From the NCBI GenBank assembly GCA_000004695.1, contig CM000150.2, positions 928,001 to 992,000 of the forward strand: a stretch of 64,000 nucleotides of DNA. The letters are read 5' to 3'. The position numbers were made by a program, and so were the translations under genes. This stretch comes from Dictyostelium discoideum. Lineage: Eukaryota. Of the stretch, positions 1,880-24,882 are shown in pieces. Position 1 is the first letter of the stretch, and each line of letters begins with the position of its first letter. The notes beneath the pieces were generated by a model. That model was not told the DNA's origin. It ran no database searches and saw nothing but the letters and a program-made list of their open reading frames with translations.

Positions 1880-4116
1880 TTATTTTTTAGCTAAATATTT
1901 ACTTAAAAGTAAACCAACACCTGCAACACCTGCAGCAATAACAAGATAAGTCAAAATATTACTATTGTTTGAACCATTTGAACCATTAGAATTATCATTG
2001 AAGGAGCTGTTTACAATTGTTTCCATCATCTCGTGATAAATGGAATTAGATCTTGAAATTGAAAAATCCTTTGGTGAATAATTTTTATGAGATTTAAAGA
2101 ATGAATCAATAATTTTTGATGTTGATACATTTGCATTTGTAGTTGTCGTATTGTTATTATTATTATTATTATTATTATTAATATTATTATTATTATTATT
2201 TAAATTATTATTATTATTGTTATTATTATTGTTATTATTGTTGTTGTTATTATTATTATTATTTTTAGTTCTTATGAATACGATTGGTATATTTAATTGT
2301 TGTTGTTTTAATTGGTTATATATATTTTCAATGAATTTAAATGATTGTTCACTATTACAATCATATAATAAACATACTAAATCACATTTACTCTTTAATT
2401 CTGCTGTTGGAATTTTTTCACCCACATATTCACTTAACTAAAAATTAATTATGAGAGAGAGAAAAGAGAGAGTGGGTGTTTAAATATTAATAATAATAAT
2501 AATAATTAAATTAAAAATAAAAAAATAAAACTTACAATTAAATATTTATTTTTTAAAAGATGACCACAAACTTTGAAATTATCATTACCATTTGTTGCAT
2601 TATAAAGTGTTGAGAAGGATTTTCCAATAAAAGTATTTAAAAATGTAGTTTTTCCAACTGCTTCAGCACCAAAGACATAACAATTTACAATATTTCTAGT
2701 GAATTGATTTGATTTGATATCCAATTCTCTTGAATTTAAAATGCTAATCATATCAATATTATTATTTTCAGTTTGTGATCCAAAATAAGCTAAATATTCC
2801 AATGTAACTTTATAATTTTCATATGTTTGTAAACTAAATATTGAAATTAACAAAAAAAAAAAAAAACATGAGGGGTTAATAAATAATAATAATAATAATA
2901 ATTTTAATGATAAAAATACATACTTCCATAATGATAAAAAACCAGATAAAGTTAAATTTGAATCTTTATCAGTATTGAAATGTTTTTCAAAACCAATTTC
3001 CCAAGGTATTTTTGGAGTTGTTGAAAAGAGAGAAACCAAATCGAAACTTGAGAGTACACCATCGGAATCGGAATCATACTTTTCAAAGAGTGATTTAAAG
3101 AATTCGTTACCCATTGAACTGAGGATAGTGTTATGATTTGGAGGTACTTGTAAGGTTGGATGAACATATGATTCCAAAAGTACAAGATCATCATCATAAT
3201 TGAATGATCTTAGTGAGGTCCAAGTATGTTGACAAGGACCTCTCAAAAGGAATAACAAGTTCATATAGAGGAAACCTTTCTCAGTGAAACCATTTGAGTT
3301 TACACCATCGGGTATTTTTGATAATACAAATTGTTGAATGTTTTGTATTTCTTCAGAGGTCATAGTTTCATGACCGCATTTAGTTTGAAAATAGTTTATC
3401 TCCTCCTCTGATAAGGAACCATCGTTATCGTGATCACAAAGTTTGAAAATTCTCTTTAATGCACGTTCACATCCTTCAGTCATTTTATTCTCTTCCCTAT
3501 TGTATAGAATACGCTCTGGAAAGAATACTGATGTTTGTGAAGCATATAATAACTCTGGTAAATTTTCCATCGTTTTTGCACTACACTCTAACCATTGAAT
3601 AGTATTTGAATATGTACTTCTAAAATATTGAATCGTCTCTTCAATTTGAACTTTATTATTCTCATGTTTATCATCAACTAAATCTAATTTATTACCAACA
3701 ATAATAATTGGTGATTTCTATATAAAAATAATAATTAAAAATCTTAGTTAATATTTATGTGTGTGTGTGTGTGTGTTTTTATTTTATATAAAGTTATATT
3801 CCAAAAAAAGTAATATATTACATTTGAACCTCTTAATTGATTAATTAATGGTATCCATTTCATACGAATACTCATAAATGTATCGAAACGATCAACAGAG
3901 TAAACTATTACAATTGCATCAGCTGTTCTAATTTCCATATTCATTTGATTCTTTAAATTCTTTCCATCATCAAATGTATCAATGATACGAGTTGAACAAA
4001 TTTCATTATTAAATTCTGCTGGTATTGTTACTTCTGGTAATGTTTTTTGTGTAATCTCACTAAAACTTTCTGAAATGAATGAATTTATAATTGTTGATTT
4101 CCCAACTTGTTCTAAT

Positions 4117-4154
<38 letters not shown>

Positions 4155-4237
4155 ATTAGTTTTTTTTAACTAAATATTATAATTTTAAATTTATATTTAC
4201 CATCACCAATTAAAATAACCTTTATGTTATTTTTCAT
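1880..4237 (-). CDS. gemA: Mitochondrial Rho GTPase (Miro), five exons. Minus-strand exons: 4237..4201, 4111..3822, 3717..2924, 2833..2536, 2437..1880.
   Basis: The N-terminus is MKNNIKVILIGD|EQVGKST, a P-loop split by an intron. It continues with KWIPLINQLRGSN and KSPIIIVGNKLDL. Two EF-hand regions follow (DHDNDGSLSEEEINYF and EKYDSDSDGVLS). The second GTPase domain is VFGAEAVGKTTFLNTF. The protein ends in a hydrophobic tail anchor (LTYLVIAAGVAGVGLLLSKYL). It is collinear with human MIRO1. Donors are GTAAAT/GTAATA/GTATGT/GTAAGT and acceptors are ...TAG. Confidence 0.85.
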
Positions 4238-4340
4238 TTTAGATTTTTATTTTCCTTCTTATTTTTTTTTTCTTTTTATAATTGTTTATATTTTTAATTG
4301 TTTATTTTATTTTATTTTTATTTTTTTTATAAAATGAATG

Positions 4341-4371
<31 letters not shown>

Positions 4372-4663
4372 AAGGTGGGAGCGCTTCCAAAAATTAAAAA
4401 TTAAAAAAAATAAAAAAAAAATTAAAATTTCCCGCTCTTTTTTTTTTTAAGTTCAAAATAATTAAATTGTTTTGGTTTTATTTAGATATTTTTATCTTTT
4501 TTTTTACTTTTACTTTTATTTCTATTTTTATTTTTATTTATATTTTTAAAAAATAGAGTGAAAAAAAAAAAAAAAAAAAAAAAAAAAAGAAAAAAAAATA
4601 CATATGCAAAATATATACATATATATATATATATATTTATTAATAAATTAAATTAAAAAATTT

Positions 4664-5581
4664 TTAATTAATTCCAGAGAAATAAAAAATATTTCCATTT
4701 GAATTGATATAATTTGTATTATGATTATTATCAGACATTATCATGAGTATTTTAGTTTTCTCTTTAATTTTGACCAAGTCAGTACAATTTGGGAATAGTA
4801 TAGAGGCACGATTTGAGAGAGCAAATGATTCCTCATATCGTTCCACATAGTTATAGAAACCCAATAGATCAATGATATAATCCAATTTTAACCATCTTTC
4901 ACAATCCAAAGCTTCTAAATACATGGATTCAGCATTTTGATACTCTTTTTTCAATGTAAACAATTGAGCTATCCTTAACTTTGCATTACAATAGTATGGT
5001 GACATTTGAGCGATTGAAAACAGTGACGATAATGAACCTTCAATATCACCCTCACCATTACTCTTTTCATAACGATTCAATAATCCCAAGAATAAATCAT
5101 AATTATTTTGATGATGATGATGATAAAAATACTTATTATTTGGGTTCCTTCTATTAAATTCTGAAATTTCACTCATTAATTGTTCATTACTACTTAATTG
5201 TATTTTTTGATCATTATTATTATTATTATTATTATTATTACTGTTACTATTACTATTACTATTACCACCACTATTTTTATATGGTGAATTTTGACTATAT
5301 TGATAATTATATTGTTGTTGTTGTTGTTGTTGTTGTTGGTATTGCTGTTGCTGTTGTTGTTGATGTTGTTGTTGTTGGTAGTGTTGCTGTTGTTGATAAT
5401 GCTGTTGTTGTTGATAATGATGATGATATCCATGTGGATAACCTTGATAACCATATTGACTATTATATTTCGATTGAACTTTTTGTTGACCAAAGTCTGA
5501 TACCAATATCATCATAAAAAAAAATATTATTACAAGGTTAAATAATAATTTCCACCAACTAAAGTATCTATTATTATTTAA

Positions 5582-5612
<31 letters not shown>

Positions 5613-5815
5613 CCGTTGCTTCCTCCATTACTATTATTGTTATTATTATTTATATTATCGATATCATTTTTTTCGTTACTATTGTCATTATTACTATAAT
5701 TGTTATTACTACCATTATTATTATTGCCATTGCTATTAATAATTGTATCACTATTATCACAAGTGCTAATACTTTTAAGTTTATTTTCATTGTTTATGTT
5801 ACCAAAACTATTAAA

Positions 5816-5899
<84 letters not shown>

Positions 5900-6071
5900 T
5901 ATATTGTTACACTGTCGGTTATTATAATTGTAATAGCTATTATTATTACTGCTACTATTAATATTACTATTATTATTATTATTATTATTATTACTATTAT
6001 TATCATCATCATTATTTACATTTTTACAATTAACATCACTATTTTCATTATTAATTATTTTCTTATTATTA

Positions 6072-6111
<40 letters not shown>

Positions 6112-6514
6112 ATTCAATATTTTCACTTTCACTAATATTAACTCTATTTATTTTATTATAATTTTCTTTTAAATTATATTCACCACAAATTAAATTAGTT
6201 TCTCTATGAATTGTTTCGATTCTTTTAAGAATATCAATACCAGTATTACTACTTCTATTATCATCTAAAGTTTTTATCTTTTTATATAATTGTCTATTAA
6301 ATACTGTATGCTCTTTTTTAATTAATTGTTGTTCTTCATAATTTTCTTTTTTTAGTTGTTCTGTTTGTAGTTCGCCATTTAAGGTTTTATCATTATTATT
6401 ATCATCATTACAATTATTATTTTTATTACTATTGATATCAATTAAAGGAACTATATTTTCATTAGAAATATTTTGTTCTTGCATTTCAATTTTATCTAAA
6501 TTTGTATTATTATA

Positions 6515-6550
<36 letters not shown>

Positions 6551-6661
6551 TATGATAGTTTGTTCCTCTTGATAAAATTGATTATTTTGATTTTCAGTAT
6601 TAATTTCTATATCGTCTCCATTTTGATTATTGGTATTATTAAGGTATTCATCGTTGTTCAT
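4664..6661 (-). CDS. Hypothetical Asn/Gln/His-rich protein with one predicted transmembrane segment and a TPR-like C-terminal region.
   Basis: A 665-aa ORF with poly-N, a QQQQHY repeat block, a hydrophobic stretch (WWKLLFNLVIIFFFMMILV), and a C-terminal region with TPR-like helices (YYCNAKLRIAQLFTLKKEYQNAESMYLEALD). No family could be assigned from memory. Additional upstream exons cannot be excluded. Confidence 0.5.
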
Positions 6662-6666
6662 TATAT

Positions 6667-6830
<164 letters not shown>

Positions 6831-8051
6831 TGTTTTTGTTTTTGTTTTTTTAAAAAAATTTATATTTTTACTATAATATATATATATTTTAATTTAAGAA
6901 ACAATATTATTATCTTTTTTTTAAAAAAAATTCGAATTTACCATCCGGACCGTTAATTTATTTAAAATGTAATCACTTTTGTGTTGAAAAAATTATATGG
7001 ACCTATAATATAGTGTGTATACTATAATTGGGGAAAAATGGACTTGATTTTTTTTTTATTTATTTATTTTTTATTTTTTTATTTTTTATTTTTTTCAAAT
7101 TTTTTTTTTTTTATTTTTTTATTTTTTTTTTTTATGGGTTTACTTATTTTGTTTAATTTTTTATTTTATTTTTATTTTTAATTTTAAAAAATATTAGCCA
7201 GAAAAGAGATATACATATATAAATAAATAAATAAATAAATATATAAATATAAATATATATATAAATATTTATTAATACACTTTTTTTTTTTTTTTTTTTT
7301 TTTTTTGATTTTTTAAATTTTTAATTTTTTAATTTTTTTGGTTTATTTATTTTTTTTTTTTTTAATTTTTTATTTTTATTTATATTTATATTTTTATTTT
7401 GTATCTAATAAGAGTGTGGTTTGAGGAAAGTGTGGTTTTTTTTAAAAAAAAAAAAAAAATAGTAATATTATTATTATAAACAACAGCAACAATAAAAAAA
7501 TAAAATCATTAATTAACCTAAAACGGTAATAATAACGATATAAAATTAATCAATTAGCATATACATACATATATTTATATTATATTGTTTTTGTAAGTAT
7601 TTAAAAGTATAAATTTCATCCACATTTTTTTTTTTTTAATAACGATTACAATAATAACAATAACTGATAGAATTCCACCAATTGTTAATGTTTTGATATT
7701 TAAATGATATTTAAATGATATTTAAATGGTGATGATGATGGTGATGATAACGATGATAAAATAATAATTTTAATAATATTAATATTAATATTAATAATTA
7801 AATTAAAAATTATTTGATATAATAAATTGTATAATTGTATAATTACCTAAAATTAAATAATGATTAAAAAAAAAAAAAAAAAGTTAGAAAGCATTTATAA
7901 TTTTTTTTTTTTAAAATAGTAAATTAAAAAAAAAATTGAAAAAAAATAAAAAAGGAGATAATCCAAAAAAAAAAAAAGTATTAAGTACAAATATAGAGAA
8001 AAAAAAAAAAAAAAAAAAAAAAAGAAAAGAAAAGTAACCAACCTTTAAAAT

Positions 8052-9107
8052 ATGTCAGTTTCAGAACCAAATATTAGTGGAAAAGTTATTTTAAAAACTA
8101 CATTGGGTGATATTGAGATTGAATTGTGGGGTAAGGAAACACCTTTGACAACTAGGAATTTTGTGCAGTTATGTTTGGAGGGGTATTACGACGGTTGCAT
8201 TTTCCATAGAGTGATTAAAGATTTTATTGCACAAACTGGTGATCCAACAAACACAGGAACCGGTGGCGAATCAGTCTATAAGGAGACCGAGATCCAAGAC
8301 AACGAAGGTGAGTTAATAAAAAGCACTGCATTTAAAGATGAATTCCACTCAAGATTAAGATTCAATAGACGTGGTATGGTTGGAATGGCATCTTCATCAC
8401 CGGATCAAAATAAATCGCAATTCTTTTTCACGTTGGCTAAAACTGAAAATCTCACTAAAAAACACACTGTCTTTGGTAGAGTGGCCGGTGATACCTTATT
8501 CAATCTTTTAAAAGTTAATGATTTAGAAGTTGATTCTGAAACAGACTTACCTCTATTCCCACCTAAAATCATTTCAACCAATGTTGTCTGGAATCCATTC
8601 CCTGATATAATTCCAAGAGTTAAAACTATTATTAAAAAAAAAGTTGAAAAAAAGAAACAAACTAAAAAGTAAATATTATTTATTATTATTATTATTTTTT
8701 ATATTTATTTCAAAAGAAATTTTATTACTATTTTTATTATTTTTATTATTTTTCTATTAATTAAAAAAAAAAAAAAAATTTAAAAAAAAAAATATGGAAA
8801 TTTATATGTTTTCCTTTATTTTATTTTTTTTATTTTATTTACTTTTTTTTTTTTTTATTTTTTTTTTTAATAGTAAAATTGGGAAAATAAGAATAATTTG
8901 GATACATATAAATAGTAATATAACCCAATTTTTTTTTAAAAAAAAAAGACAATTGTATACTAATAGGATATTTTTTTTTTTTTTTTTTTTTTTTACATTT
9001 TTTATTTATTTATTTTTATTTTTTTCTAGAAATTTAAATTTATTATCTTTTGGTGATGAAAAAAATGAAGGGGAATTTGATAATTCAAAAATTATCCTTA
9101 ATAATAT

Positions 9108-9167
<60 letters not shown>

Positions 9168-9588
9168 TAATATAAAATTAAATAATATATCAAAAGAAAT
9201 AAAAAATAGTGGTGGTGATAGTGGTGATAGTGGCGATAGTGGTGGTTATAATTCAGACGATGGTGGTGACAATAATAAAAAACAATTAAAAAACAACCCA
9301 GAAATTATGACAGAGGCTGTAATCGAAAAGAATAAAAAAGAAGATGTTGATGAATTAAAGAATCTAAAAAATGAAATAGATTCATCGACTCTATCTAAAT
9401 TAAATACTACAACATCTACAACATCTACAACTACCACAACCATAACTACAACACCACCAACAGAACAAGTAAAACAAAGTGTAGATAAAAAGAAAAAAAT
9501 TAAGGGATCCCTACAATTTAAAACTACAACAACACCAACAGTCCCCAAAAAATCAAGATCTATCTCGGAAACTGATGTATGTACATTT

Positions 9589-9687
<99 letters not shown>

Positions 9688-9715
9688 AATAAAAATAATA
9701 AAAATAATAATAATG

Positions 9716-9751
<36 letters not shown>

Positions 9752-10060
9752 TAATTATAAAAGATAATGAGTTATTAATTAATAATTTATTTTTTTGATT
9801 TAATTTTCTAATCATTTTTTATTTTTTTTTTTTTTTTTTTTATTTTTTTTTTTATTTTTTTTATTTTCCCTATCTTTTTTTCATTTTATTTTATTAAATT
9901 TTAGCTTTTAAATAAATTAAATTCTTTTAAAAATAGTTTAAATAGTAAACCAAGTAATATAAAAAGAAGTGTAGAAGAGAAAGAAGAGGATGAGGAGGAT
10001 AATGATTGGATGCGTCATTCTTTAAAATTTTCAAAAAAATCTAAATTAGAATACGAGTAA
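8052..10060 (+). CDS. cwc27: Spliceosome-associated cyclophilin-type PPIase-like protein CWC27 homologue. Exons are 8052..8668, 9030..9576 and 9905..10060.
   Basis: Exon 1 is GKVILKTTLGDIEIELWGKETP...FHRVIKDFIAQTGDPT..GGESVY...FKDEFHSRLRFNRRGMVGMA..QFFFTL...KHTVFGRV. It is collinear with human CWC27 across the PPIase domain. Exon 2 begins KNLNLLSFGDEKNEGE, matching human KNFSLLSFGEEAEEE. Exon 3 ends DNDWMRHSLKFSKKSKLEYE, matching human EGWMSHVLQFEDKS. Splice sites are GTAAAT..CTAG and GTATGT..TTTTAG. Confidence 0.85.
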
Positions 10061-15373: not shown

Positions 15374-16711
15374 TTAGTTGGTGAGTTCTTTGATTTTGGC
15401 ATCCTTTTTAACGATTTCAGATTCTAAGTAAGCAACACGAATCTTTAATTTTTCGTATTCTTCACGGAGTTCTTTTTCATTCTTTGGACCTTCTTGAACT
15501 TGAACGACTGGTTTGAATTCAACAGCTGAAGCTTTTTTGACAAAACCACCAGCTAAACTAACAGTCTTTGGTTCAGCATTGGTACCTGAAACCCATTGTT
15601 CGGCAGTGAGTGATGGTTCACCAGCGTAGGTATCTGGGTAGATATCGTCTTGGAAGATATCAGATTTTCTTGGTACACGGAATGAGATTGGTTCAACGGT
15701 GAATGGAGTAACTTTGAGACCTCTAGCGATTTCACATTCAGAGGTGTTGAGACATCTCTTTGGTAAGAAGCAAAGACCTCTTTGTGGGGTGGCAGATTTG
15801 AATTCACTTAAGAAATGAATGTATGGTGATTCATCGACCAATTCGTAGTATCTGATGTTACCATCACCTTTACCAGCAAGGTATAAAATTGAATTGTCAG
15901 CATCATAGAATGGCATTAAGAGACCAGAGGCAGAATCGACGACTTGAGCAGAGAGTGGGGTGGTGAAAGCACGTGGATCATAAATGTGGAGTTCTCTTTC
16001 AGAGGTCTTTGAGAAACCAACGGTGATAACCTTATCTTTGGCAAAGATGGCTCTGCTGTTTTTGACACCTTGGTGACAAACGACTTCGTTGACGATAGAG
16101 TTTGTTCTTGGATCGAAAACACGAGCTTTCTTATCTTTACAGGTGGTAACGATTTGGCTACCATTGTGATTCCATTCGCATGAAGTGATCATATCAGAGT
16201 GACCTTCAACAGTGGTTAAATTCTTACCTTGTTCAACATCCCAAGTTTTAACTAAGAAATCACCAGATGAGGTAACGGCAACATTATCAGCAACTGGATT
16301 GAATGAGATGGTACCAACCTTTCTCTTGTGACCAGATAAAGTTTGGAGTGGGGTTGAGATTGAGTCGGTTAAACCACCTTCTGGGATACCCCAAATACAA
16401 ATGTTACAATCTTCAGAAACTGAACCAACGAGGTTTTCATTGAATGGGTGGAAAGCAATATCTAAAACTGCACTCTTATGACCATTGAATAATGGAACTG
16501 ATGTGGTTTTACCTGAAGCCTCATGTGGAATAACAGCGAATGAACCACCACCTGCAGCATCCCAAATAACACCAAAGTATCTAGTGTTGGCTGCAACGTA
16601 ATTACTATCCCATGCTGATTTGGTAACTTTTAAGTTTTGATAGCACTCTTCTTTTTTTGGTTGTGCTGCAAAAACATGACGATATTTACTACTACGGACT
16701 ACTTTAGACAT
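15374..16711 (-). CDS. corA: Coronin, a WD40 actin-binding protein of 445 aa, in a single exon.
   Basis: The sequence is MSKVVRSSKYRHVFAAQPKKEECYQNLKVTKSAWDSNYVAANTRYFGVIWDAAGGGSFAVIP..., with WD repeats and a C-terminal coiled coil (ELREEYEKLKIRVAYLESEIVKKDAKIKELTN). It matches the classic D. discoideum coronin in sequence and length. Confidence 0.95.
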   Translation of the reverse strand: MSKVVRSSKYRHVFAAQPKKEECYQNLKVTKSAWDSNYVAANTRYFGVIWDAAGGGSFAVIPHEASGKTTSVPLFNGHKSAVLDIAFHPFNENLVGSVSEDCNICIWGIPEGGLTDSISTPLQTLSGHKRKVGTISFNPVADNVAVTSSGDFLVKTWDVEQGKNLTTVEGHSDMITSCEWNHNGSQIVTTCKDKKARVFDPRTNSIVNEVVCHQGVKNSRAIFAKDKVITVGFSKTSERELHIYDPRAFTTPLSAQVVDSASGLLMPFYDADNSILYLAGKGDGNIRYYELVDESPYIHFLSEFKSATPQRGLCFLPKRCLNTSECEIARGLKVTPFTVEPISFRVPRKSDIFQDDIYPDTYAGEPSLTAEQWVSGTNAEPKTVSLAGGFVKKASAVEFKPVVQVQEGPKNEKELREEYEKLKIRVAYLESEIVKKDAKIKELTN

Positions 16712-17512: not shown

Positions 17513-18091
17513 TTTATTGGTATGTTATAACTCTCTTTTGTTTATTTTTTATTTTAATTTTTTTTTATTTTTTTTTTTTTATTTTTTTTTTTGTTTGTAT
17601 GTTAATCCAAAGCAGATTCATCTCTTCATAATTTTTTTTTTTTTTTTCATATGAAATGGCTTTACTTTTTTTCATAAAATATTTTTTTTTTTTTTTAAAA
17701 AATTTTTGTTTTTTTTTTTATAAAATTAGATCATTTGGAAATTCAACGAAAATTTCTATAAACCTAAAAATAATCCAACAAAGATGGCTATATTTTTTAA
17801 ATTTTATGTTGGCGGTAATTAAAAATATTCTTTATTCATTACACAAACATAGGGAATATTCAGACCTTTTCAAAACATCTGTAATTTTATTCTCTTTTCC
17901 AATTTCTCAATCATTATATTTATTTCAATAGGATGTAAGTCATTTTTATTATTGAGTTTATCTTCACTTTTTTTTTTTTTAATATTTCTTATTTTTTAAT
18001 GGAAATTTTAAAAAATACACTTTTTTCTTTTTTTAATGGAAATTTTAGAATAACGGATAAAATTTTTTGAGTTAAACAAATTTTCATCAAA

Positions 18092-18173
18092 GACATCGTA
18101 GCGAAGTGGTCTAACGCGTTTGACTTGAAATCAAATCTCCTAGGAGGCGCAGGTTCGAACCCTGCCGATGTCG
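18092..18173 (+). tRNA. tRNA-Ser, anticodon UGA, 82 nt with a long variable arm.
   Basis: It folds by hand as follows. Acceptor GACATCG/CGATGTC. D-arm GCG-AAGTGGTCTAA-CGC. Anticodon stem TTTGA/TCAAA with loop CTTGAAA, anticodon TGA. Variable arm TCTCCTAGGAGGC. T-arm GCAGG-TTCGAAC-CCTGC. Discriminator G. Confidence 0.9.
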
Positions 18174-18244
18174 ATATTTTATTTGCACTGCTAAATTCCC
18201 GAACTTCGGATGTTTGAAACTTGGGTCCCAACCAAAATAGTTTT

Positions 18245-18260
18245 ATCCATATAAAGAGCA
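18245..18260. repeat. Left target-site duplication (atccatataaagagca) of the TRE3 insertion.
   Basis: A perfect 16/16 match with 19801..19816, flanking the retroelement. Confidence 0.75.
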
Positions 18261-19607
18261 CAGTACTGCTCAGCAACATCATCATCGTTAAACAAAGAGA
18301 AAACAGTAATGATAGCAATAGGAGATTACCATTCCAAGAGAGTACAGTCCCAGAAAGATATCTTGGCCTCAATTTCACCAAAACAGGTTTAAATTCAAAA
18401 TACAACACTTTAATCCAAGAAATGAAAAACAATCTAATCAAATGGAAATCACAAGCAATAACGATGAAGGCAAAGATGACAATTCTCAAAACATACGTTC
18501 TATCCAAATTAACATACCATCAATACATGGATAATCTAAATGAAGAACAAATTGAGGAAATCAATAACATGACCAGATGGTTCTTATTCTCCTCAGTTAA
18601 GAATACATATACAGAAGAGAGAAAATACAAAACTATGATGAAAATAGACAGAGCATATGCAGATTGGAAAGAAGGAGGCATAAAATTATGGGATTTAGAA
18701 CTAAGACATATAGCATTCAAAATCTGGTACATGAACAGGCTATTCCATAACAACTACAACAACAACAACAATACCTTACAAGAATGGTACATGGAGCAAT
18801 TAAGTAGAAAAAAGCCCACACTTCAACCCTCAACGATATGTGCAGACACTGGGGTGTATTCAGAGTCAAATTTTACAAAAACCATCCAAAGATAAATGAA
18901 CTTCCAGACTGTATAAGAAACGACAATGACGAACCACTAAAACTGAAAGAAATTTACGAACTCATGATCAAAGACAGACACCCAACACCAAGAAGAACAG
19001 AATGGCAGAAGTTATGGGCGGTGAGATACAACACAGCAATACCCAAAGTATTCATAAACATCAACAGCATTTCTCACCAAAAAGGTAGAAACACCCTCTT
19101 CAGATTCTTCTCAAGATCACTTCCAGGTATCAACCACGAAAGAGACACCAGATGCAAGATCTGTGGCCACCTATTAAGAGACCCTTATTCTCACCTCTTC
19201 ACTCTATGCCAAGATATCCTAGATATTGAAAAAACCATCATATCAACAGTTAACAAAATATCATTCATCAAAATCCACAGATGGTCAATGGATACCTTAG
19301 ACATATCAAAATACAACAGAACTGAGAGAATCTTCCCCAATCTCATAGGAATAATAGCACACCAATTATGGAAGATAATCTGTCACAAATTGTTCAACAC
19401 TGATGAAAGCAAACCAGAGCCAAAATTCGAACAAAAGGTCATAGAAACAGAATTACTAAATCTCATCGAAACTGAAAAATTCATCACACTAAAGAAAATC
19501 AAACACGACGAAGCAATACTAAAAAACACCAATCAAGATCTTCACAAATACAAATTCAACAAAGCCTGGCAAACCCCAGCAGCTCCGAACCCTCTTCCAA
19601 TTTAAGT

Positions 19608-19687
<80 letters not shown>

Positions 19688-19800
19688 GTTTAAAAAATTT
19701 AATACAATTGAATAATAAAAATAAAACCGTTTGACAAACACCGCCGAAAAGACACAAGGACATTCCTTGAAGGTCTGATCACAGGTAAAAAAAAAAAAAA
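18261..19800 (+). mobile_element. 5'-truncated tRNA-gene-targeting non-LTR retrotransposon of TRE3 type (formerly Tdd-3). It contains the RT C-terminal part and the Cys-rich ORF2 tail, an internal (A)71, a C-module and a terminal oligo(A).
   Basis: ORF 18221..18895 has an L1-like RT thumb region (YLGLNFTKTGLNSKYNTLIQEMKNNLIKWKSQAITMKAKMTILKTYVLSKLTYH). ORF 18838..19605, in another frame (a frameshift or degenerate copy), has the CKICGH...C zinc-knuckle-like tail. Poly(A) lies at 19607-19677, followed by a 120-bp module and (A)14. The insertion point is 87 bp 3' of the tRNA-Ser and is flanked by a 16-bp TSD. Confidence 0.75.
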
Positions 19801-19816
19801 ATCCATATAAAGAGCA
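19801..19816. repeat. Right target-site duplication (atccatataaagagca).
   Basis: Identical to 18245..18260 and immediately follows the oligo(A) end of the element. Confidence 0.75.
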
Positions 19817-20333
19817 TCAAACCGATATATTAAAAAAAAACAATTTAAAACTACAAACTTAGGGAAAATGCAAATAAAAAAAAAAAAAGAAATAATTAGG
19901 AGAATACAATAAAAATAAATAAAAAAAAAAAAAACCTTTGAAACAAAAAATAATCACAAAAATGAATCAAATTTTTCTTTTTTTTTTTTTATAAATTTTT
20001 TTTTTATATATTTTTTTTATTTCTATTTTTAAATATCACCATCATTTTTTTTTTTATTTTTATTTTTTGGAAATAGATTTTATATTATTTCTAAATAAAT
20101 TTAATGGAAAAATAAAATTTTTTTGATTTTTTGATTTTTTTTTTTTTGTTGTTGAACATTTGGGTTATCAAATGATGGAGTTATTGAATGTTGTGTGTGT
20201 TTGATACATTATTTTTTCTTTTTTTATTTTTTTTTTTTATTTTTTTTATTTTTTTTTTTTTGGTGCAATAAAAATTGATATTACACTTTAATATTATTAT
20301 TATTATTATTATTATTTATATGAGATATTTTTA

Positions 20334-22029: not shown

Positions 22030-24882
22030 TTAATGGAAAAAATATCTACTTTCTTTTACTTTATTAATATCTAATTCACCTTTTTTTGGTAATTTAGGGA
22101 ATTTAATATCTGGATATCTAACTTGGAACCATTCAAGTAAACGTTCTAAAATTGGTTGTTTATGAAGTTCAACAAATTCATTTCTTAAGATATCATTCAT
22201 TCTATCGACAGTTGAAGCATGAGTCCAATAGGAATCATGTACTGAGGAGTAGGTGATACCTTGATCATAACAAGTCATAGCAGTTAAAAACATATGAGTT
22301 GAATCTAAAGAGTGAATGAAATTTGGAGGGAAAGCAGAACGTTGACGATTTGAATCCACTTGAAGTAAATCATCATTATGAACTACGATGAAATCACATT
22401 CCAATGTTCTAATATTATATTTACCACCTTTTTTATATGGTTGTACAACTGGTAGACCCAATGGGGTGTTCCAAGTTACACAATGACCCGATTTTGCAAT
22501 GAGTGTGGCGCAATCGGACATCCACTTCATGATGGATCTTGCACCAACAAACATATTATTCAAAGAGGCAAAGGTGTTTTTTGTAATGTATGTAGAGGAT
22601 TTAAATATGAAATCTTCGTCTAAATCGAGATCACTAAATTTCTCAAGGATTGCATTTTCAATTTGTTCACGAGCACCAATATAGGTTACACCATATACAC
22701 TTGTCATAACGGTTTGTTTCACCAATTTTCTATCGACTTTACCTAAAAAGAATTGAGCAATCTCATCGCCATTCTTGGCGTCCTCCTCTACGATTTGCTC
22801 CACCAATTGTGCTACACTACTATAGACATCCTGTGGACAATCGGATGGGAGTAAATTAACCTTTTCAGCACCCCAAACATCACCACCCAAAGCAGCATAA
22901 TGTTGAAGACCATTGCAAGTACCATCTTGATGAATAGGTAAATTGGAGAGGAACTCGGCAGGTTTGCCACTACGAATGGCTTTGGTGAGCTCCATACAAG
23001 CTGCAAGAGTTTGCCATGGATTATCGGCCTTCAACCACCATTTATTACCATTCAATGGTGAATCAACACTATCGAAAATATTTTCCATGTTTCTCTCGGT
23101 GAATGCTAATCTTTCATTCAATGGAATCTTATCGACACCATAGAGATTTGCTACATGTATCTTTAACCATTCCAAACCTTTCTCGCCCAATGGCAATGAT
23201 TTTTCAAATTTCAATAGACTTCTACAAAAATCTGAACCTAAATGATTTAAATGTGGTGGAATTGGGTATGATCTACCACGGAAATCGATATTGTGTGGAA
23301 AGTAAAGTGTATGATCTAAAAACTTTCTGGCTACTTCCAATTTGTAATTTGTATCACAACGTAGTGAATGAAGATTGAAATTTAGCGATTTGATTCTTTG
23401 TTCTTTTTTGTAGAGTTCTTTACGAGCTTCATGATCAAACAACATATCATCTGATATCTCTGGATATTCGAAATCGGTTCTCTTGGGAATATCACCAATG
23501 TTACCACCATTGGCCCATGCTTCCAAGATTACATTGTAGAGATCTCTATTGATCACCCATGGTGTTTCACCGAGAATATTCAATGCTCTATAGATTAATG
23601 ACATATCAGAGTCTACGAGTGTTCTCAATTGCATTGCTGAGCCATTGGTTCTCATGATGGGTACTTTATAATGGAGGTATGGACCTTCGGTTGGTGTGAT
23701 CCATGGCAATGGTTTAATCACCATTGGGAATAGACGTGCACCACCTGTCTCTCTAATTTCATGACCTGCTTCAATCAATTTGAATATATTTTTGTGTGGT
23801 ATAACTTTTGTGGTTCTAACACCATTGGCATAATGAGATTGAATGGTGAAGGCTGGCGATTGTTTTGAGCCATCCTCACCCAACGACTCTTGAATCGTAC
23901 AATGTTTAAATACTTGACTCACAAGGAACTCACCAATGCTAAAGATGTCCTTTGATTCTGGTGGTAGAACGATCACATCGAGATTGTCTGTGGAAAGATT
24001 GTAAAACTTTTTAAGAGCAGAATTTGGTATGAGTTTTGAGATTTTCTTGTAGGTTTTTGGTTCTTTTTTCTTTACAATTAGCGATTTATACTCTGCATAC
24101 ACCGATACACCAATGGTCTCTATAATGATATTGGTCGCAAAGTCGTATCTATCTTTTAATACACTTTTGCCTACAATGATATTCAATGATTTTAGTATGC
24201 ATTTCTGAACAGACACTGTCTTCAATATAGTGACCCATGCTGCATCTTGATCCTTGGTTGCAAGATCCTTTTGTACCTTTTCTGTCAACCCTTCATTCCA
24301 TTGCATCAAAACATCACGAATCGATTTAAAACTGGTCACAAATGATTTACCCTTGCTATCAAGCATTAAATCACGATAACGAGTGACTGCGTCGTCAATG
24401 GCTTCAAATTCCAAGAGGGTTTGTATCTTTCTTAAATTCTTTTCATCATCACTAATCTCCTTAACATCACTCTTCCAATCGGTGTCATTTTCAATTCCAT
24501 CTTCACCATCTAATAAATAACTTTGTGCAACAACTCTTGCTTTATTCAATTTTGCTAAATCCTCTACAAATGATTTCTCCAAGTCGATTAATTTCTGTTT
24601 GGTTTCATTCAATCTCTGTTCACTATCTAAATATTCTAATGGTGATGATAAATCTTCTTTATCTGGAAATAATTCTTTTAATTTATCTAATCTATTTGAA
24701 TTCTCTTGTCCATCTTCTATAATTTTTCTTAAATTTGAATATTCATTTATTTTTATATTATTTATATTACTATTTATATTATTATTATTATTATTATTAT
24801 TACTACTACTATATTTATAATTATTAAAACTTTGTAATTTAACTTTTGAAATTGATCTTAAATTTTGACCTAACCTAATCAT
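22030..24882 (-). CDS. rpmA: Nuclear-encoded mitochondrial DNA-directed RNA polymerase, a single-subunit T7-phage-type enzyme of 950 aa.
   Basis: The N-terminus is presequence-like (MIRLGQNLRSISKVKL). T7-RNAP motifs are present: PIHQDGTCNGLQHYAALGGD, HDSYWTHA and a C-terminal ...FH. Confidence 0.9.
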   Translation of the reverse strand: MIRLGQNLRSISKVKLQSFNNYKYSSSNNNNNNNNINSNINNIKINEYSNLRKIIEDGQENSNRLDKLKELFPDKEDLSSPLEYLDSEQRLNETKQKLIDLEKSFVEDLAKLNKARVVAQSYLLDGEDGIENDTDWKSDVKEISDDEKNLRKIQTLLEFEAIDDAVTRYRDLMLDSKGKSFVTSFKSIRDVLMQWNEGLTEKVQKDLATKDQDAAWVTILKTVSVQKCILKSLNIIVGKSVLKDRYDFATNIIIETIGVSVYAEYKSLIVKKKEPKTYKKISKLIPNSALKKFYNLSTDNLDVIVLPPESKDIFSIGEFLVSQVFKHCTIQESLGEDGSKQSPAFTIQSHYANGVRTTKVIPHKNIFKLIEAGHEIRETGGARLFPMVIKPLPWITPTEGPYLHYKVPIMRTNGSAMQLRTLVDSDMSLIYRALNILGETPWVINRDLYNVILEAWANGGNIGDIPKRTDFEYPEISDDMLFDHEARKELYKKEQRIKSLNFNLHSLRCDTNYKLEVARKFLDHTLYFPHNIDFRGRSYPIPPHLNHLGSDFCRSLLKFEKSLPLGEKGLEWLKIHVANLYGVDKIPLNERLAFTERNMENIFDSVDSPLNGNKWWLKADNPWQTLAACMELTKAIRSGKPAEFLSNLPIHQDGTCNGLQHYAALGGDVWGAEKVNLLPSDCPQDVYSSVAQLVEQIVEEDAKNGDEIAQFFLGKVDRKLVKQTVMTSVYGVTYIGAREQIENAILEKFSDLDLDEDFIFKSSTYITKNTFASLNNMFVGARSIMKWMSDCATLIAKSGHCVTWNTPLGLPVVQPYKKGGKYNIRTLECDFIVVHNDDLLQVDSNRQRSAFPPNFIHSLDSTHMFLTAMTCYDQGITYSSVHDSYWTHASTVDRMNDILRNEFVELHKQPILERLLEWFQVRYPDIKFPKLPKKGELDINKVKESRYFFH

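What the first reader, a model, noticed from the sequence alone, without database searches (positions are those of the whole stretch)
18092..19816. tRNA-Ser(UGA) gene with a position-specific, 5'-truncated TRE3-type retrotransposon 87 bp downstream and a perfect 16-bp TSD
The element ends in oligo(A) and is flanked by identical 16-mers (atccatataaagagca) at 18245-60 and 19801-16. Its insertion point is 87 bp 3' of the tRNA. It carries the C-terminal RT and Cys-rich ORF2 tail of a non-LTR element. Its two ORF pieces are in different frames, which indicates a frameshift or decay. It has an unusual internal (A)71 upstream of a 120-bp terminal module. This is a textbook example of Dictyostelium tRNA-targeted integration. 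The TSD defines the empty-site sequence exactly.
Basis: partly seen in the sequence, partly recalled or inferred. Interest (0 to 1): 0.5.

Follow-up and report, generated by a model that had tools for sequence, protein, structure and literature searches.

The report
Truncated TRE3 retrotransposon behind tRNA-Ser gene
This is an ordinary, already well-described kind of event: a dead, 5'-truncated copy of a Dictyostelium TRE3 "jumping gene" that landed at its usual spot about 90 bp behind a tRNA gene, and strains without the insertion show the intact target site.

Summary
The window is Dictyostelium discoideum AX4 chromosome 1 (next to coronin A). A tRNA-Ser(UGA) gene lies at 18092-18173. A 1540-bp, 5'-truncated non-LTR retrotransposon (18261-19800) sits 87 bp downstream in the same orientation. 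It ends in oligo(A) and is flanked by a perfect 15-16-bp target-site duplication. Two other D. discoideum strains carry the same locus with a single copy of the target and no element, so the empty site is observed directly. Other copies (98-99% identical in D. discoideum and one D. citrinum locus, 92% in another) lie 60-90 bp downstream of tRNA-Phe, tRNA-Gln and tRNA-Ser, or in tandem behind a sister TRE3 element at tRNA-Val. This is TRE3 behaviour.

Corrections:
- The internal A-run is 68 nt, not 71.
- ORF2 is broken twice (a 13-nt and a 1-nt deletion), so three frames are used, not two.
- Only the last ~40 residues of the RT domain survive.
- The internal poly(A) plus ~110-nt terminal module is the standard 3' end of this subfamily and of a sister subfamily, so it is not unusual.

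The subfamily letter (A-D) could not be assigned because no reference sequences were reachable. Verdict: already known, low interest.

Side note: a D. citrinum copy is more similar to the D. discoideum copies than host genes are.

The parts
18092..18173 (+). tRNA-Ser(UGA) gene, 82 nt, with a long variable arm. This is the Pol III target gene.
   Evidence: ARAGORN. Rfam RF00005, 64.8 bits. Conserved at the orthologous locus in five other Dictyostelium assemblies.
18099..18109 (+). A box of the internal Pol III promoter (TAGCGAAGTGG).
   Evidence: Read directly from the sequence. Match to the TRGCNNAGTGG consensus is from general knowledge.
18152..18162 (+). Internal B box GGTTCGAACCC (TFIIIC site). 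It ends 98 bp upstream of the insertion point.
   Evidence: Sequence. The published TRE3 preference is for positions downstream of internal or external B boxes (PMC5911963).
18177..18180 (+). T4 run, the likely Pol III terminator of the tRNA gene. The element lies beyond it.
   Evidence: Sequence. Function is inferred.
18211..18221 (+). Degenerate external B box (tgtttgaaact). Other strains have GTTCGAAAC or GGTTCGAAAC at the same place. The insertion point is 39 bp after it.
   Evidence: Alignment with L009 and L010. Comparable exB boxes lie upstream of the L001 and L013 copies.
18245..18260 (+). 5' copy of the target-site duplication ATCCATATAAAGAGCA.
   Evidence: Single copy in the empty sites of L009 and L010.
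18261..19800 (+). 5'-truncated, decayed TRE3-type non-LTR retrotransposon, 1540 bp. It has the same orientation as the tRNA gene.
   Evidence: Homologues only in Dictyostelium/Tieghemostelium non-LTR elements. 98.0% nt identity to L013 over its full length. Absent from L009, L010 and L014.
18261..18326 (+). ORF2 remnant, piece 1 (frame of 18261): QYCSATSSSLNKEKTVMIAIGD, the tail of the RT domain. It starts 24 residues after the FADD box of intact relatives. The piece ends at a 13-nt deletion (AAACCACACGATC is missing after 18326).
   Evidence: The deletion is also present in L002.
18327..18814 (+). ORF2 remnant, piece 2 (second frame): LPFQESTVPERYLGLNF ... SRKK. It ends at a 1-nt deletion in the A-run 18808-18813 (A7 to A6).
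   Evidence: (P0010 reads SRKKAHTSTLNDMCRHWG). The deletion is also present in L002.
18815..19605 (+). ORF2 remnant, piece 3 (third frame) up to the TAA stop at 19603-19605. It contains the CCHC zinc-knuckle CKICGHLLRDPYSHLFTLC at 19153-19209.
   Evidence: 98% identical to the C-terminus of P0013.
19611..19678 (+). Internal A-run of 68 nt, part of the family's 3' UTR. Its length is unstable: 35 nt at the same locus in assembly L002, and 24-40 nt in other copies.
19679..19786 (+). 108-nt terminal 3' module ending in CACAGGT, with a small hairpin AAGGA-CAT-TCCTT. It is conserved in all copies of the subfamily.
   Evidence: Fold z = -2.0. No Rfam family.
19787..19800 (+). Terminal oligo(A), 14-15 nt, the site where target-primed reverse transcription started.
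   Evidence: The mechanism is inferred from non-LTR biology.
19801..19816 (+). 3' copy of the target-site duplication ATCCATATAAAGAGCA.

Best explanation
A TRE3-family (tRNA-gene-targeted, 3'-side) non-LTR retrotransposon RNA was inserted by target-primed reverse transcription 87 bp downstream of the D. discoideum tRNA-Ser(UGA) gene on chromosome 1.

Proposed sequence of events:
1. The integration complex was directed to the region downstream of the B box(es) of the Pol III gene. The internal B box ends 98 bp upstream of the insertion point and a degenerate external B box ends 39 bp upstream. This targeting step is inferred from the literature.
2. The element's endonuclease nicked the two strands 15-16 bp apart. 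This is inferred from the TSD.
3. Reverse transcription started on the terminal oligo(A) and stopped early, inside the RT-coding region. The result is a 1.5-kb 3' fragment. The 5' truncation is shown here.
4. The copy was dead on arrival: it has no ORF1, no endonuclease and no RT catalytic core.
5. The copy also carries a 13-nt and a 1-nt deletion. Its internal A-run has changed length by slippage.

The insertion is young and polymorphic. It is present in AX4 and one near-identical assembly and absent from two diverged D. discoideum strains and a D. cf. discoideum assembly. It probably has no function beyond being a neutral passenger in a safe site.
For: - tRNA gene.
- Perfect 16-mer TSD abutting oligo(A), unique in the window.
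- Empty site with a single target copy in L009 and L010; no element in L014.
- Homology to dictyostelid non-LTR ORF2 proteins, with RVT_1 and Exo_endo_phos domains in longer relatives.
- Truncation point 24 residues past FADD.
- Exact lesions from alignment to a 98%-identical copy. They are confirmed in a second assembly.
- Five further insertions of this subfamily or its sister were found through protein homology, without reference to tRNAs. Four lie 49-90 bp downstream of a tRNA gene (L001 tRNA-Phe +90, L008a tRNA-Val +49, L013 tRNA-Gln +67, L011 tRNA-Ser +60). The fifth (L008b) lies in tandem behind L008a. All are in the same orientation as the tRNA gene and have 14-18-bp TSDs.
- Published TRE3 behaviour is 40-150 bp downstream, same orientation, B-box dependent, with tandems formed: PMC5911963, PMC5006619 and PMC5391098.
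Against: - No direct comparison with the named TRE3-A/B/C/D reference sequences was possible. Membership therefore rests on behaviour, structure and homology to unnamed Dictyostelium copies.
- The external B box in AX4 is degenerate (8 of 10 defined consensus positions).
- The first base of the element (C at 18261) does not match the 98%-identical copy. It is either a substitution or an untemplated base, so the exact 5' junction is uncertain by 1 nt.
- The TFIIIC-dependent targeting mechanism has been examined experimentally in some detail only for TRE5-A, not for TRE3 (PMC5006619).
Confidence: 0.95

Rival explanations
1. The 16-mer repeat is the edge of a segmental duplication or a chance repeat in AT-rich DNA, not a TSD. 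On this view the element did not insert here as a unit.
For: The genome is about 78% A+T and full of low-complexity repeats, so short repeats are common.
Against: - The 16-mer is not low-complexity and occurs only at these two places in 64 kb. The expected number of such pairs within 3 kb is about 0.003.
- Identity ends exactly at both edges.
- Strains L009 and L010 have one copy of the 16-mer with contiguous flanks and no element.
Confidence: 0.01
2. The element is composite. A TRE3 copy ended at the internal (A)68, and a separate short SINE-like or 3'-transduced sequence (108 nt plus A15) later inserted into, or was carried behind, its poly(A) tail at this locus.
For: - An internal long poly(A) followed by a short poly(A)-terminated unit is what nested or tandem retroposition looks like.
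- The module has no coding capacity.
Against: - The same module follows the same stop codon, GTAGTAG spacer and A-run in all six copies at five different loci in two species. In each case the TSD brackets the whole composite.
- A sister subfamily with 58% aa identity has the same architecture with a different module sequence.
- The bipartite end is therefore part of the mobile unit. An ancient transduction origin is not excluded, but it did not happen at this locus.
Confidence: 0.03
3. The element belongs to another tRNA-associated dictyostelid retroelement family (TRE5, Skipper-2, DGLT-A or NLTR) rather than TRE3.
For: - All these families cluster at tRNA genes, and Skipper-2 also targets the downstream side (PMC5006619).
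- No named reference sequence was compared.
Against: - There are no LTRs, the element has an oligo(A) end and it is 5'-truncated. These features exclude the LTR elements Skipper-2 and DGLT-A.
- TRE5 sits about 50 bp upstream in the opposite orientation. A TRE5-like element upstream of the tRNA-Phe in L001 is only 27% identical in ORF2.
[quoted passage not shown] This element has the CCHC motif.
Confidence: 0.02

Closest known systems
[quoted passage not shown]
   Same: - Host species.
- Poly(A)-type element with a zinc-finger tail on ORF2. Relatives of this copy have the APE and RT domains.
[quoted passage not shown]
- Frequent 5' truncation, TSDs and tandem formation.
(for the literature; for the data.)
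   Different: Nothing found contradicts membership. Which of the four named subfamilies it is could not be determined. A sister subfamily (58% aa identity) was seen in tandem with it at a tRNA-Val gene. Together with the old report of Tdd-3/RED associations (my recollection of Marschalek et al. 1990, not re-read here), this hints at the A/B pair. That is inference only.
TRE5-A (DRE) of D. discoideum
   Same: Related non-LTR element with the same ORF2 domain order. It targets Pol III genes and has a dedicated 3' module (the C-module) required for retrotransposition (PMC5633606). The 108-nt 3' module here may play an analogous role (inference).
   Different: TRE5-A inserts about 50 bp upstream of tRNA genes in the opposite orientation. 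A TRE5-like ORF2 in L001 is only about 27% identical. The literature reached here does not describe an internal long A-run for TRE5-A.
Skipper-2 (Ty3/gypsy LTR retrotransposon of dictyostelids)
   Same: It targets an overlapping window downstream of tRNA genes (PMC5006619).
   Different: It is an LTR element with an integrase. The element here has no LTRs, ends in oligo(A) and carries a non-LTR type ORF2.
Mammalian L1 (generic TPRT-type LINE)
   Same: APE-type endonuclease clade, poly(A) end, TSDs of about 15 bp, 5' truncation by incomplete reverse transcription, and a CCHC motif at the ORF2 C-terminus.
   Different: L1 is not targeted to Pol III genes. L1 has no conserved internal poly(A)-plus-module 3' end.

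Membership tests
TRE3 (tRNA-gene-targeted retroelement, 3' side) | Non-LTR (poly(A)) retrotransposon: 3' oligo(A), no terminal repeats, variable 5' truncation, TSD | tested here: met
   Oligo(A) at 19787-19800. 15-16-bp TSD. The copy starts inside the RT-coding region. Other copies are truncated at different points.
TRE3 (tRNA-gene-targeted retroelement, 3' side) | Integration 40-150 bp (about 100 bp) downstream of a tRNA gene | tested here: met
   87 bp here. Other first-position copies are at +90, +67, +60 and +49 (the last is the sister subfamily). One further copy (L008b) lies in tandem behind another TRE3.
TRE3 (tRNA-gene-targeted retroelement, 3' side) | Same transcriptional orientation as the tRNA gene | tested here: met
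   All copies examined have the orientation of their tRNA gene.
TRE3 (tRNA-gene-targeted retroelement, 3' side) | B box (internal and/or external) upstream of the insertion | tested here: met
   Internal GGTTCGAACCC at 18152-18162. The external B box at 18211-18221 is degenerate in AX4 and intact in L009 and L010. Clear exB boxes precede the L001 and L013 copies.
TRE3 (tRNA-gene-targeted retroelement, 3' side) | ORF2 with APE endonuclease, RT and zinc-finger domains in that order | tested here: met
   This copy keeps only the RT tail and the CCHC motif. Longer relatives of the same subfamily have Exo_endo_phos (P0013) and RVT_1 (P0016). The order is seen only across different partial copies, not in one intact element.
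TRE3 (tRNA-gene-targeted retroelement, 3' side) | Sequence identity to, or phylogenetic placement with, the named TRE3-A/B/C/D consensus sequences | not testable with these tools
   No Dictyostelium repeat library is available. The defining papers are not held. The supplement alignments are not in text form. The protein databases carry the copies only as 'hypothetical protein'.
TRE5 | Integration about 50 bp upstream of tRNA genes in the opposite orientation | tested here: not met
   The element is downstream and in the same orientation.
Skipper-2 / DGLT-A (LTR retrotransposons at tRNA genes) | Long terminal repeats; gag-pol with integrase | tested here: not met
   No terminal direct repeats other than the 16-bp TSD. 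The element ends in oligo(A) and has a non-LTR ORF2.

The most novel reading that the evidence does not exclude
The TRE3 lineage to which this copy belongs may have moved recently between D. discoideum and D. citrinum, by horizontal transfer or introgression.

- A D. citrinum copy (L013, at a tRNA-Gln gene) is 98.0-98.9% identical to the D. discoideum copies. The D. discoideum copies are equally close to each other.
- The single-copy host gene coronin is only about 94% identical between the species, with 13-14% difference at third codon positions.
- A second D. citrinum copy (L011) is about 92% identical.

A weaker, separate possibility is that the conserved bipartite 3' end (internal A-run plus about 110-nt module) is a functional recognition unit for the TRE3 reverse transcriptase, analogous to the TRE5-A C-module. 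I could not find this described in the literature I was able to reach.
Probability: 0.25. Interest if true: 0.4.

Novelty: already known. Interest (0 to 1): 0.1.

Why it matters
It matters little by itself. TRE3 insertions downstream of tRNA genes are a long-described feature of the D. discoideum genome, where 61% of tRNA genes carry a TRE (PMC5006619).

This locus does have some practical uses:
- It is a clean, fully documented example. It shows filled and empty alleles, an exact TSD, the exact truncation point and the exact decay lesions.
- It is a presence/absence marker that separates the AX4/NC4-type lineage from other D. discoideum isolates.
- It illustrates that the long internal A-run is unstable, or hard to assemble: 68 versus 35 nt at the same locus.

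Tried and rejected
- Pfam on the two ORF pieces alone gave nothing significant. The RT remnant is too short, so domain evidence had to come from longer relatives.
- Subfamily naming failed by every route:
  - The Glöckner 2001 and Marschalek 1990 papers are not held.
  - The supplement of PMC5006619 has no text alignments.
  - The supplements of PMC12405889 do not list the gene.
  - Further literature searches returned no sequences or primers.
- The AX4 homologue P0010 (DDB_G0268722) is not on record in the contig index.
- BLASTN of the element against the rest of the window found no other copy. tBLASTN of related TE proteins found no other TRE-like sequence in the window. The other A-skewed, GC-richer stretches of the window coincide with long ORFs that look like ordinary genes.
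- Rfam on the 3' module found only a sub-threshold chance hit. The module's predicted fold is only marginally better than shuffles (z = -2.0), so no structural claim is made.
- Looking for a nick-site consensus across the six target sites found none (read).

Full report
**Origin of the window.** The ORF at 15374-16711 (-) is an exact match to coronin A of Dictyostelium discoideum AX4 (XP_647343 / P27133). The ORF at 22030-24882 (-) is an exact match to the AX4 DNA-dependent RNA polymerase XP_647347. Both are recorded on a 4,923,596-bp contig. The window is about 78% A+T. The finding therefore lies on AX4 chromosome 1, between coronin A and that polymerase gene.

**Check of the observation.**
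- ARAGORN finds one tRNA in the whole window, tRNA-Ser(tga) at 18092-18173 on the + strand. Rfam agrees at 64.8 bits and finds nothing else.
- The gene has an A box (18099-18109) and a B box GGTTCGAACCC (18152-18162). A T4 run follows at 18177-18180.
- The 16-mer ATCCATATAAAGAGCA occurs exactly twice in the window, at 18245-18260 and 19801-19816. The expected number of such pairs within 3 kb is about 0.003.
- Identity does not extend beyond the 16-mer on either side.
- The element between the repeats (18261-19800, 1540 bp) starts 87 bp after the tRNA end. It ends in 14-15 A.
The terminal module is 108 nt (19679-19786).

**What the element encodes.**
- The ORF pieces have homologues only in Dictyostelium species and Tieghemostelium lacteum. 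One of these is named "Non-LTR retroelement reverse transcriptase-like protein" by its source.
- Longer relatives carry Pfam RVT_1 (P0016, P0012) and Exo_endo_phos (P0013, 98% identical to the window copy over the C-terminal 163 residues).
- The window copy begins at the residue equivalent to position 249 of P0016, which is 24 residues after the FADD box. Only about 42 residues of the RVT_1 envelope remain.
- The C-terminal CCHC motif CKICGHLLRDPYSHLFTLC is at 19153-19209. The TAA stop is at 19603-19605.

**The lesions.** Alignment with a 98.0%-identical copy (L013) shows exactly two coding lesions:
- a 13-nt deletion after 18326;
- a 1-nt deletion in the A-run 18808-18813.

The ORF2 remnant is therefore spread over three frames (18261-18326, 18327-18814, 18815-19605) rather than two. 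The AX4 paralogue P0010 and the D. firmibasis protein P0003 read through the second site. The D. citrinum proteins P0015 and P0016 read through the first. Both lesions and both junctions are present in an independent assembly of the same locus (L002, GCA_054883475.1), so they are not sequencing errors.

**The empty site.** I used the coronin cluster members to fetch the orthologous locus from other assemblies. The results were:
- L002 (coronin CDS identical to AX4): carries the element at 99.5-99.8% identity across the locus.
- L009 and L010 (D. discoideum strains, coronin CDS 98.6% identical to AX4): have the tRNA-Ser gene and a single copy of ...AATCCATATAAAGAGCATCAC..., with no element.
- L014 (D. 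cf. discoideum): has no element either, though the target region has diverged.

This directly confirms the TSD and shows that the insertion is polymorphic. It also excludes a segmental duplication. In these strains the sequence at window 18211-18221 reads GTTCGAAAC (L010) or GGTTCGAAAC (L009). It is an external B box that is degenerate in AX4 (tgtttgaaact).

**Is the family tRNA-targeted?** Loci were retrieved through protein homology, without reference to tRNA genes.

| Copy | Species / assembly | tRNA gene | Distance | TSD |
|---|---|---|---|---|
| L001 | D. discoideum | tRNA-Phe | +90 bp | 17-18 bp |
| L008a (sister subfamily, 58% aa identity) | D. discoideum | tRNA-Val | +49 bp | 14 bp |
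| L008b (this subfamily) | D. discoideum | in tandem behind L008a | - | 17 bp |
| L013 | D. citrinum | tRNA-Gln | +67 bp, after a perfect exB box | 15 bp |
| L011 | D. citrinum | orthologous tRNA-Ser | +60 bp | different 16-bp TSD (independent insertion) |

All copies have the orientation of their tRNA gene. This matches the published description of TRE3: 40-150 bp downstream, same orientation, B-box related, with tandems formed (PMC5911963, PMC5006619, PMC5391098). As a rough estimate of my own, a random site has a chance of about 1e-3 of lying in such a window. That figure assumes about 418 tRNA genes and my recollection of a 34-Mb genome.

**The 3' end.** All six copies of the subfamily share one architecture:
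- TAA stop;
- GTAGTAG(T) spacer;
- A-run of 24-68 nt;
- a module of 108-114 nt ending in CACAGGT;
- oligo(A) of 8-18 nt.

In every case the TSD brackets the whole unit. The sister subfamily has an analogous end: stop, about 33 A, about 115 nt ending in AGGT, then oligo(A). The "unusual" internal poly(A) is therefore the normal 3' UTR of these elements. What is specific to this locus is only its length: 68 nt in AX4 against 35 nt in L002. That difference is either slippage or an assembly artefact. The module contains a small conserved hairpin, but its fold is only marginally better than shuffled sequence (z = -2.0). It matches no Rfam family.

**Mechanism.**
- Shown here: position, orientation, TSD, oligo(A), the 5' truncation point, the empty allele and the decay lesions.
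- Inferred from established non-LTR biology and from the TRE literature: targeting through the Pol III transcription complex bound at the B boxes; staggered nicks 15-16 bp apart by the APE-type endonuclease; priming on the terminal oligo(A); and abortive reverse transcription that produced the truncation.

The first base (C at 18261) does not match the L013 copy. It may be a substitution or an untemplated base.

**Comparison with known families.** All testable defining features of TRE3 are met. The only feature that could not be tested is identity to the named TRE3-A/B/C/D references, which I could not reach. TRE5, Skipper-2, DGLT-A and NLTR are excluded by position, orientation, structure or domain content.

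**Verdict.** The finding is correct and is a textbook case, already known in kind. Interest is low.

**Side observation.** The only mildly unexpected result is that the D. citrinum copy L013 is as close to the D. discoideum copies (98.5-98.9%) as those copies are to each other. Host coding DNA differs by about 6%, and another D. citrinum copy differs by about 8%. This is compatible with recent transfer or introgression of the lineage, but it was not pursued.

Noticed in passing
window 18261-19800 compared with L013 8994-10506 (D. citrinum GCA_054859145.1) and L011 7580-8055 (D. citrinum GCA_054859325.1): The D. citrinum copy L013 is 98.0% identical to the window element over 1501 aligned nt. 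In the shared 3' region it is 98.5-98.9% identical to three D. discoideum copies, which are equally close to each other. The coronin CDS is only 94.1-94.3% identical between the species (third codon positions differ by 13-14%), and the other D. citrinum copy is about 92% identical. This is a possible recent horizontal transfer or introgression of this TRE3 lineage.
   Followed up: partly
window 19611-19678 compared with L002 7076-7110: The internal A-run of the same insertion is 68 nt in the window (AX4) but 35 nt in the otherwise 99.5-99.8%-identical assembly GCA_054883475.1. This is either homopolymer slippage or an assembly artefact.
   Followed up: partly
window about 19817-19835, compared with L010 about 8349-8480 and L009: Immediately 3' of the TSD, AX4 lacks roughly 125 bp that are present in the empty-site strains L009 and L010. 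AX4 also lacks 12-13 nt between the tRNA gene and the external B box (about 18209). L009 carries an extra insertion of roughly 150 bp between the exB box and the target site. The tRNA-downstream spacer is indel-rich.
   Followed up: no
L015 1-2648 (D. cf. discoideum GCA_054859205.1): In this strain, homology to the window stops at window position 18034, which is 58 bp upstream of the tRNA-Ser gene. No tRNA is found within the 4 kb fetched. A gag-protease-RT-RNaseH-integrase gene (an LTR retrotransposon) lies beyond the break. The upstream side of the same tRNA gene may have been hit by a different retroelement there.
   Followed up: no
L008 9847-12620 (D. discoideum GCA_054883475.1): A TRE3-TRE3 tandem lies downstream of a tRNA-Val(AAC) gene. 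A sister-subfamily element (58% aa identity, TSD GTTTTGAGGTTGAT) is followed 6 bp later by a copy of the window's subfamily (TSD ATTGATGTTGATGATGT). The NCBI gene model P0012 fuses the two into one chimeric protein.
   Followed up: yes
L001 about 3700-9800 (D. discoideum GCA_054883475.1): A non-LTR element in the opposite orientation lies upstream of the tRNA-Phe gene that carries the TRE3 copy downstream. Its ORF2 is only 27% identical to the window element. This is the expected TRE5-type arrangement, so this one tRNA gene is occupied on both sides.
   Followed up: partly
L009/L010 compared with window 15374-16711: Two assemblies labelled D. discoideum (GCA_054859385.1 and GCA_054859355.1) differ from AX4 by 1.4% in the coronin CDS (3.4-3.6% at third codon positions). 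My impression, not checked here, is that this is high for strains of one species.
   Followed up: no
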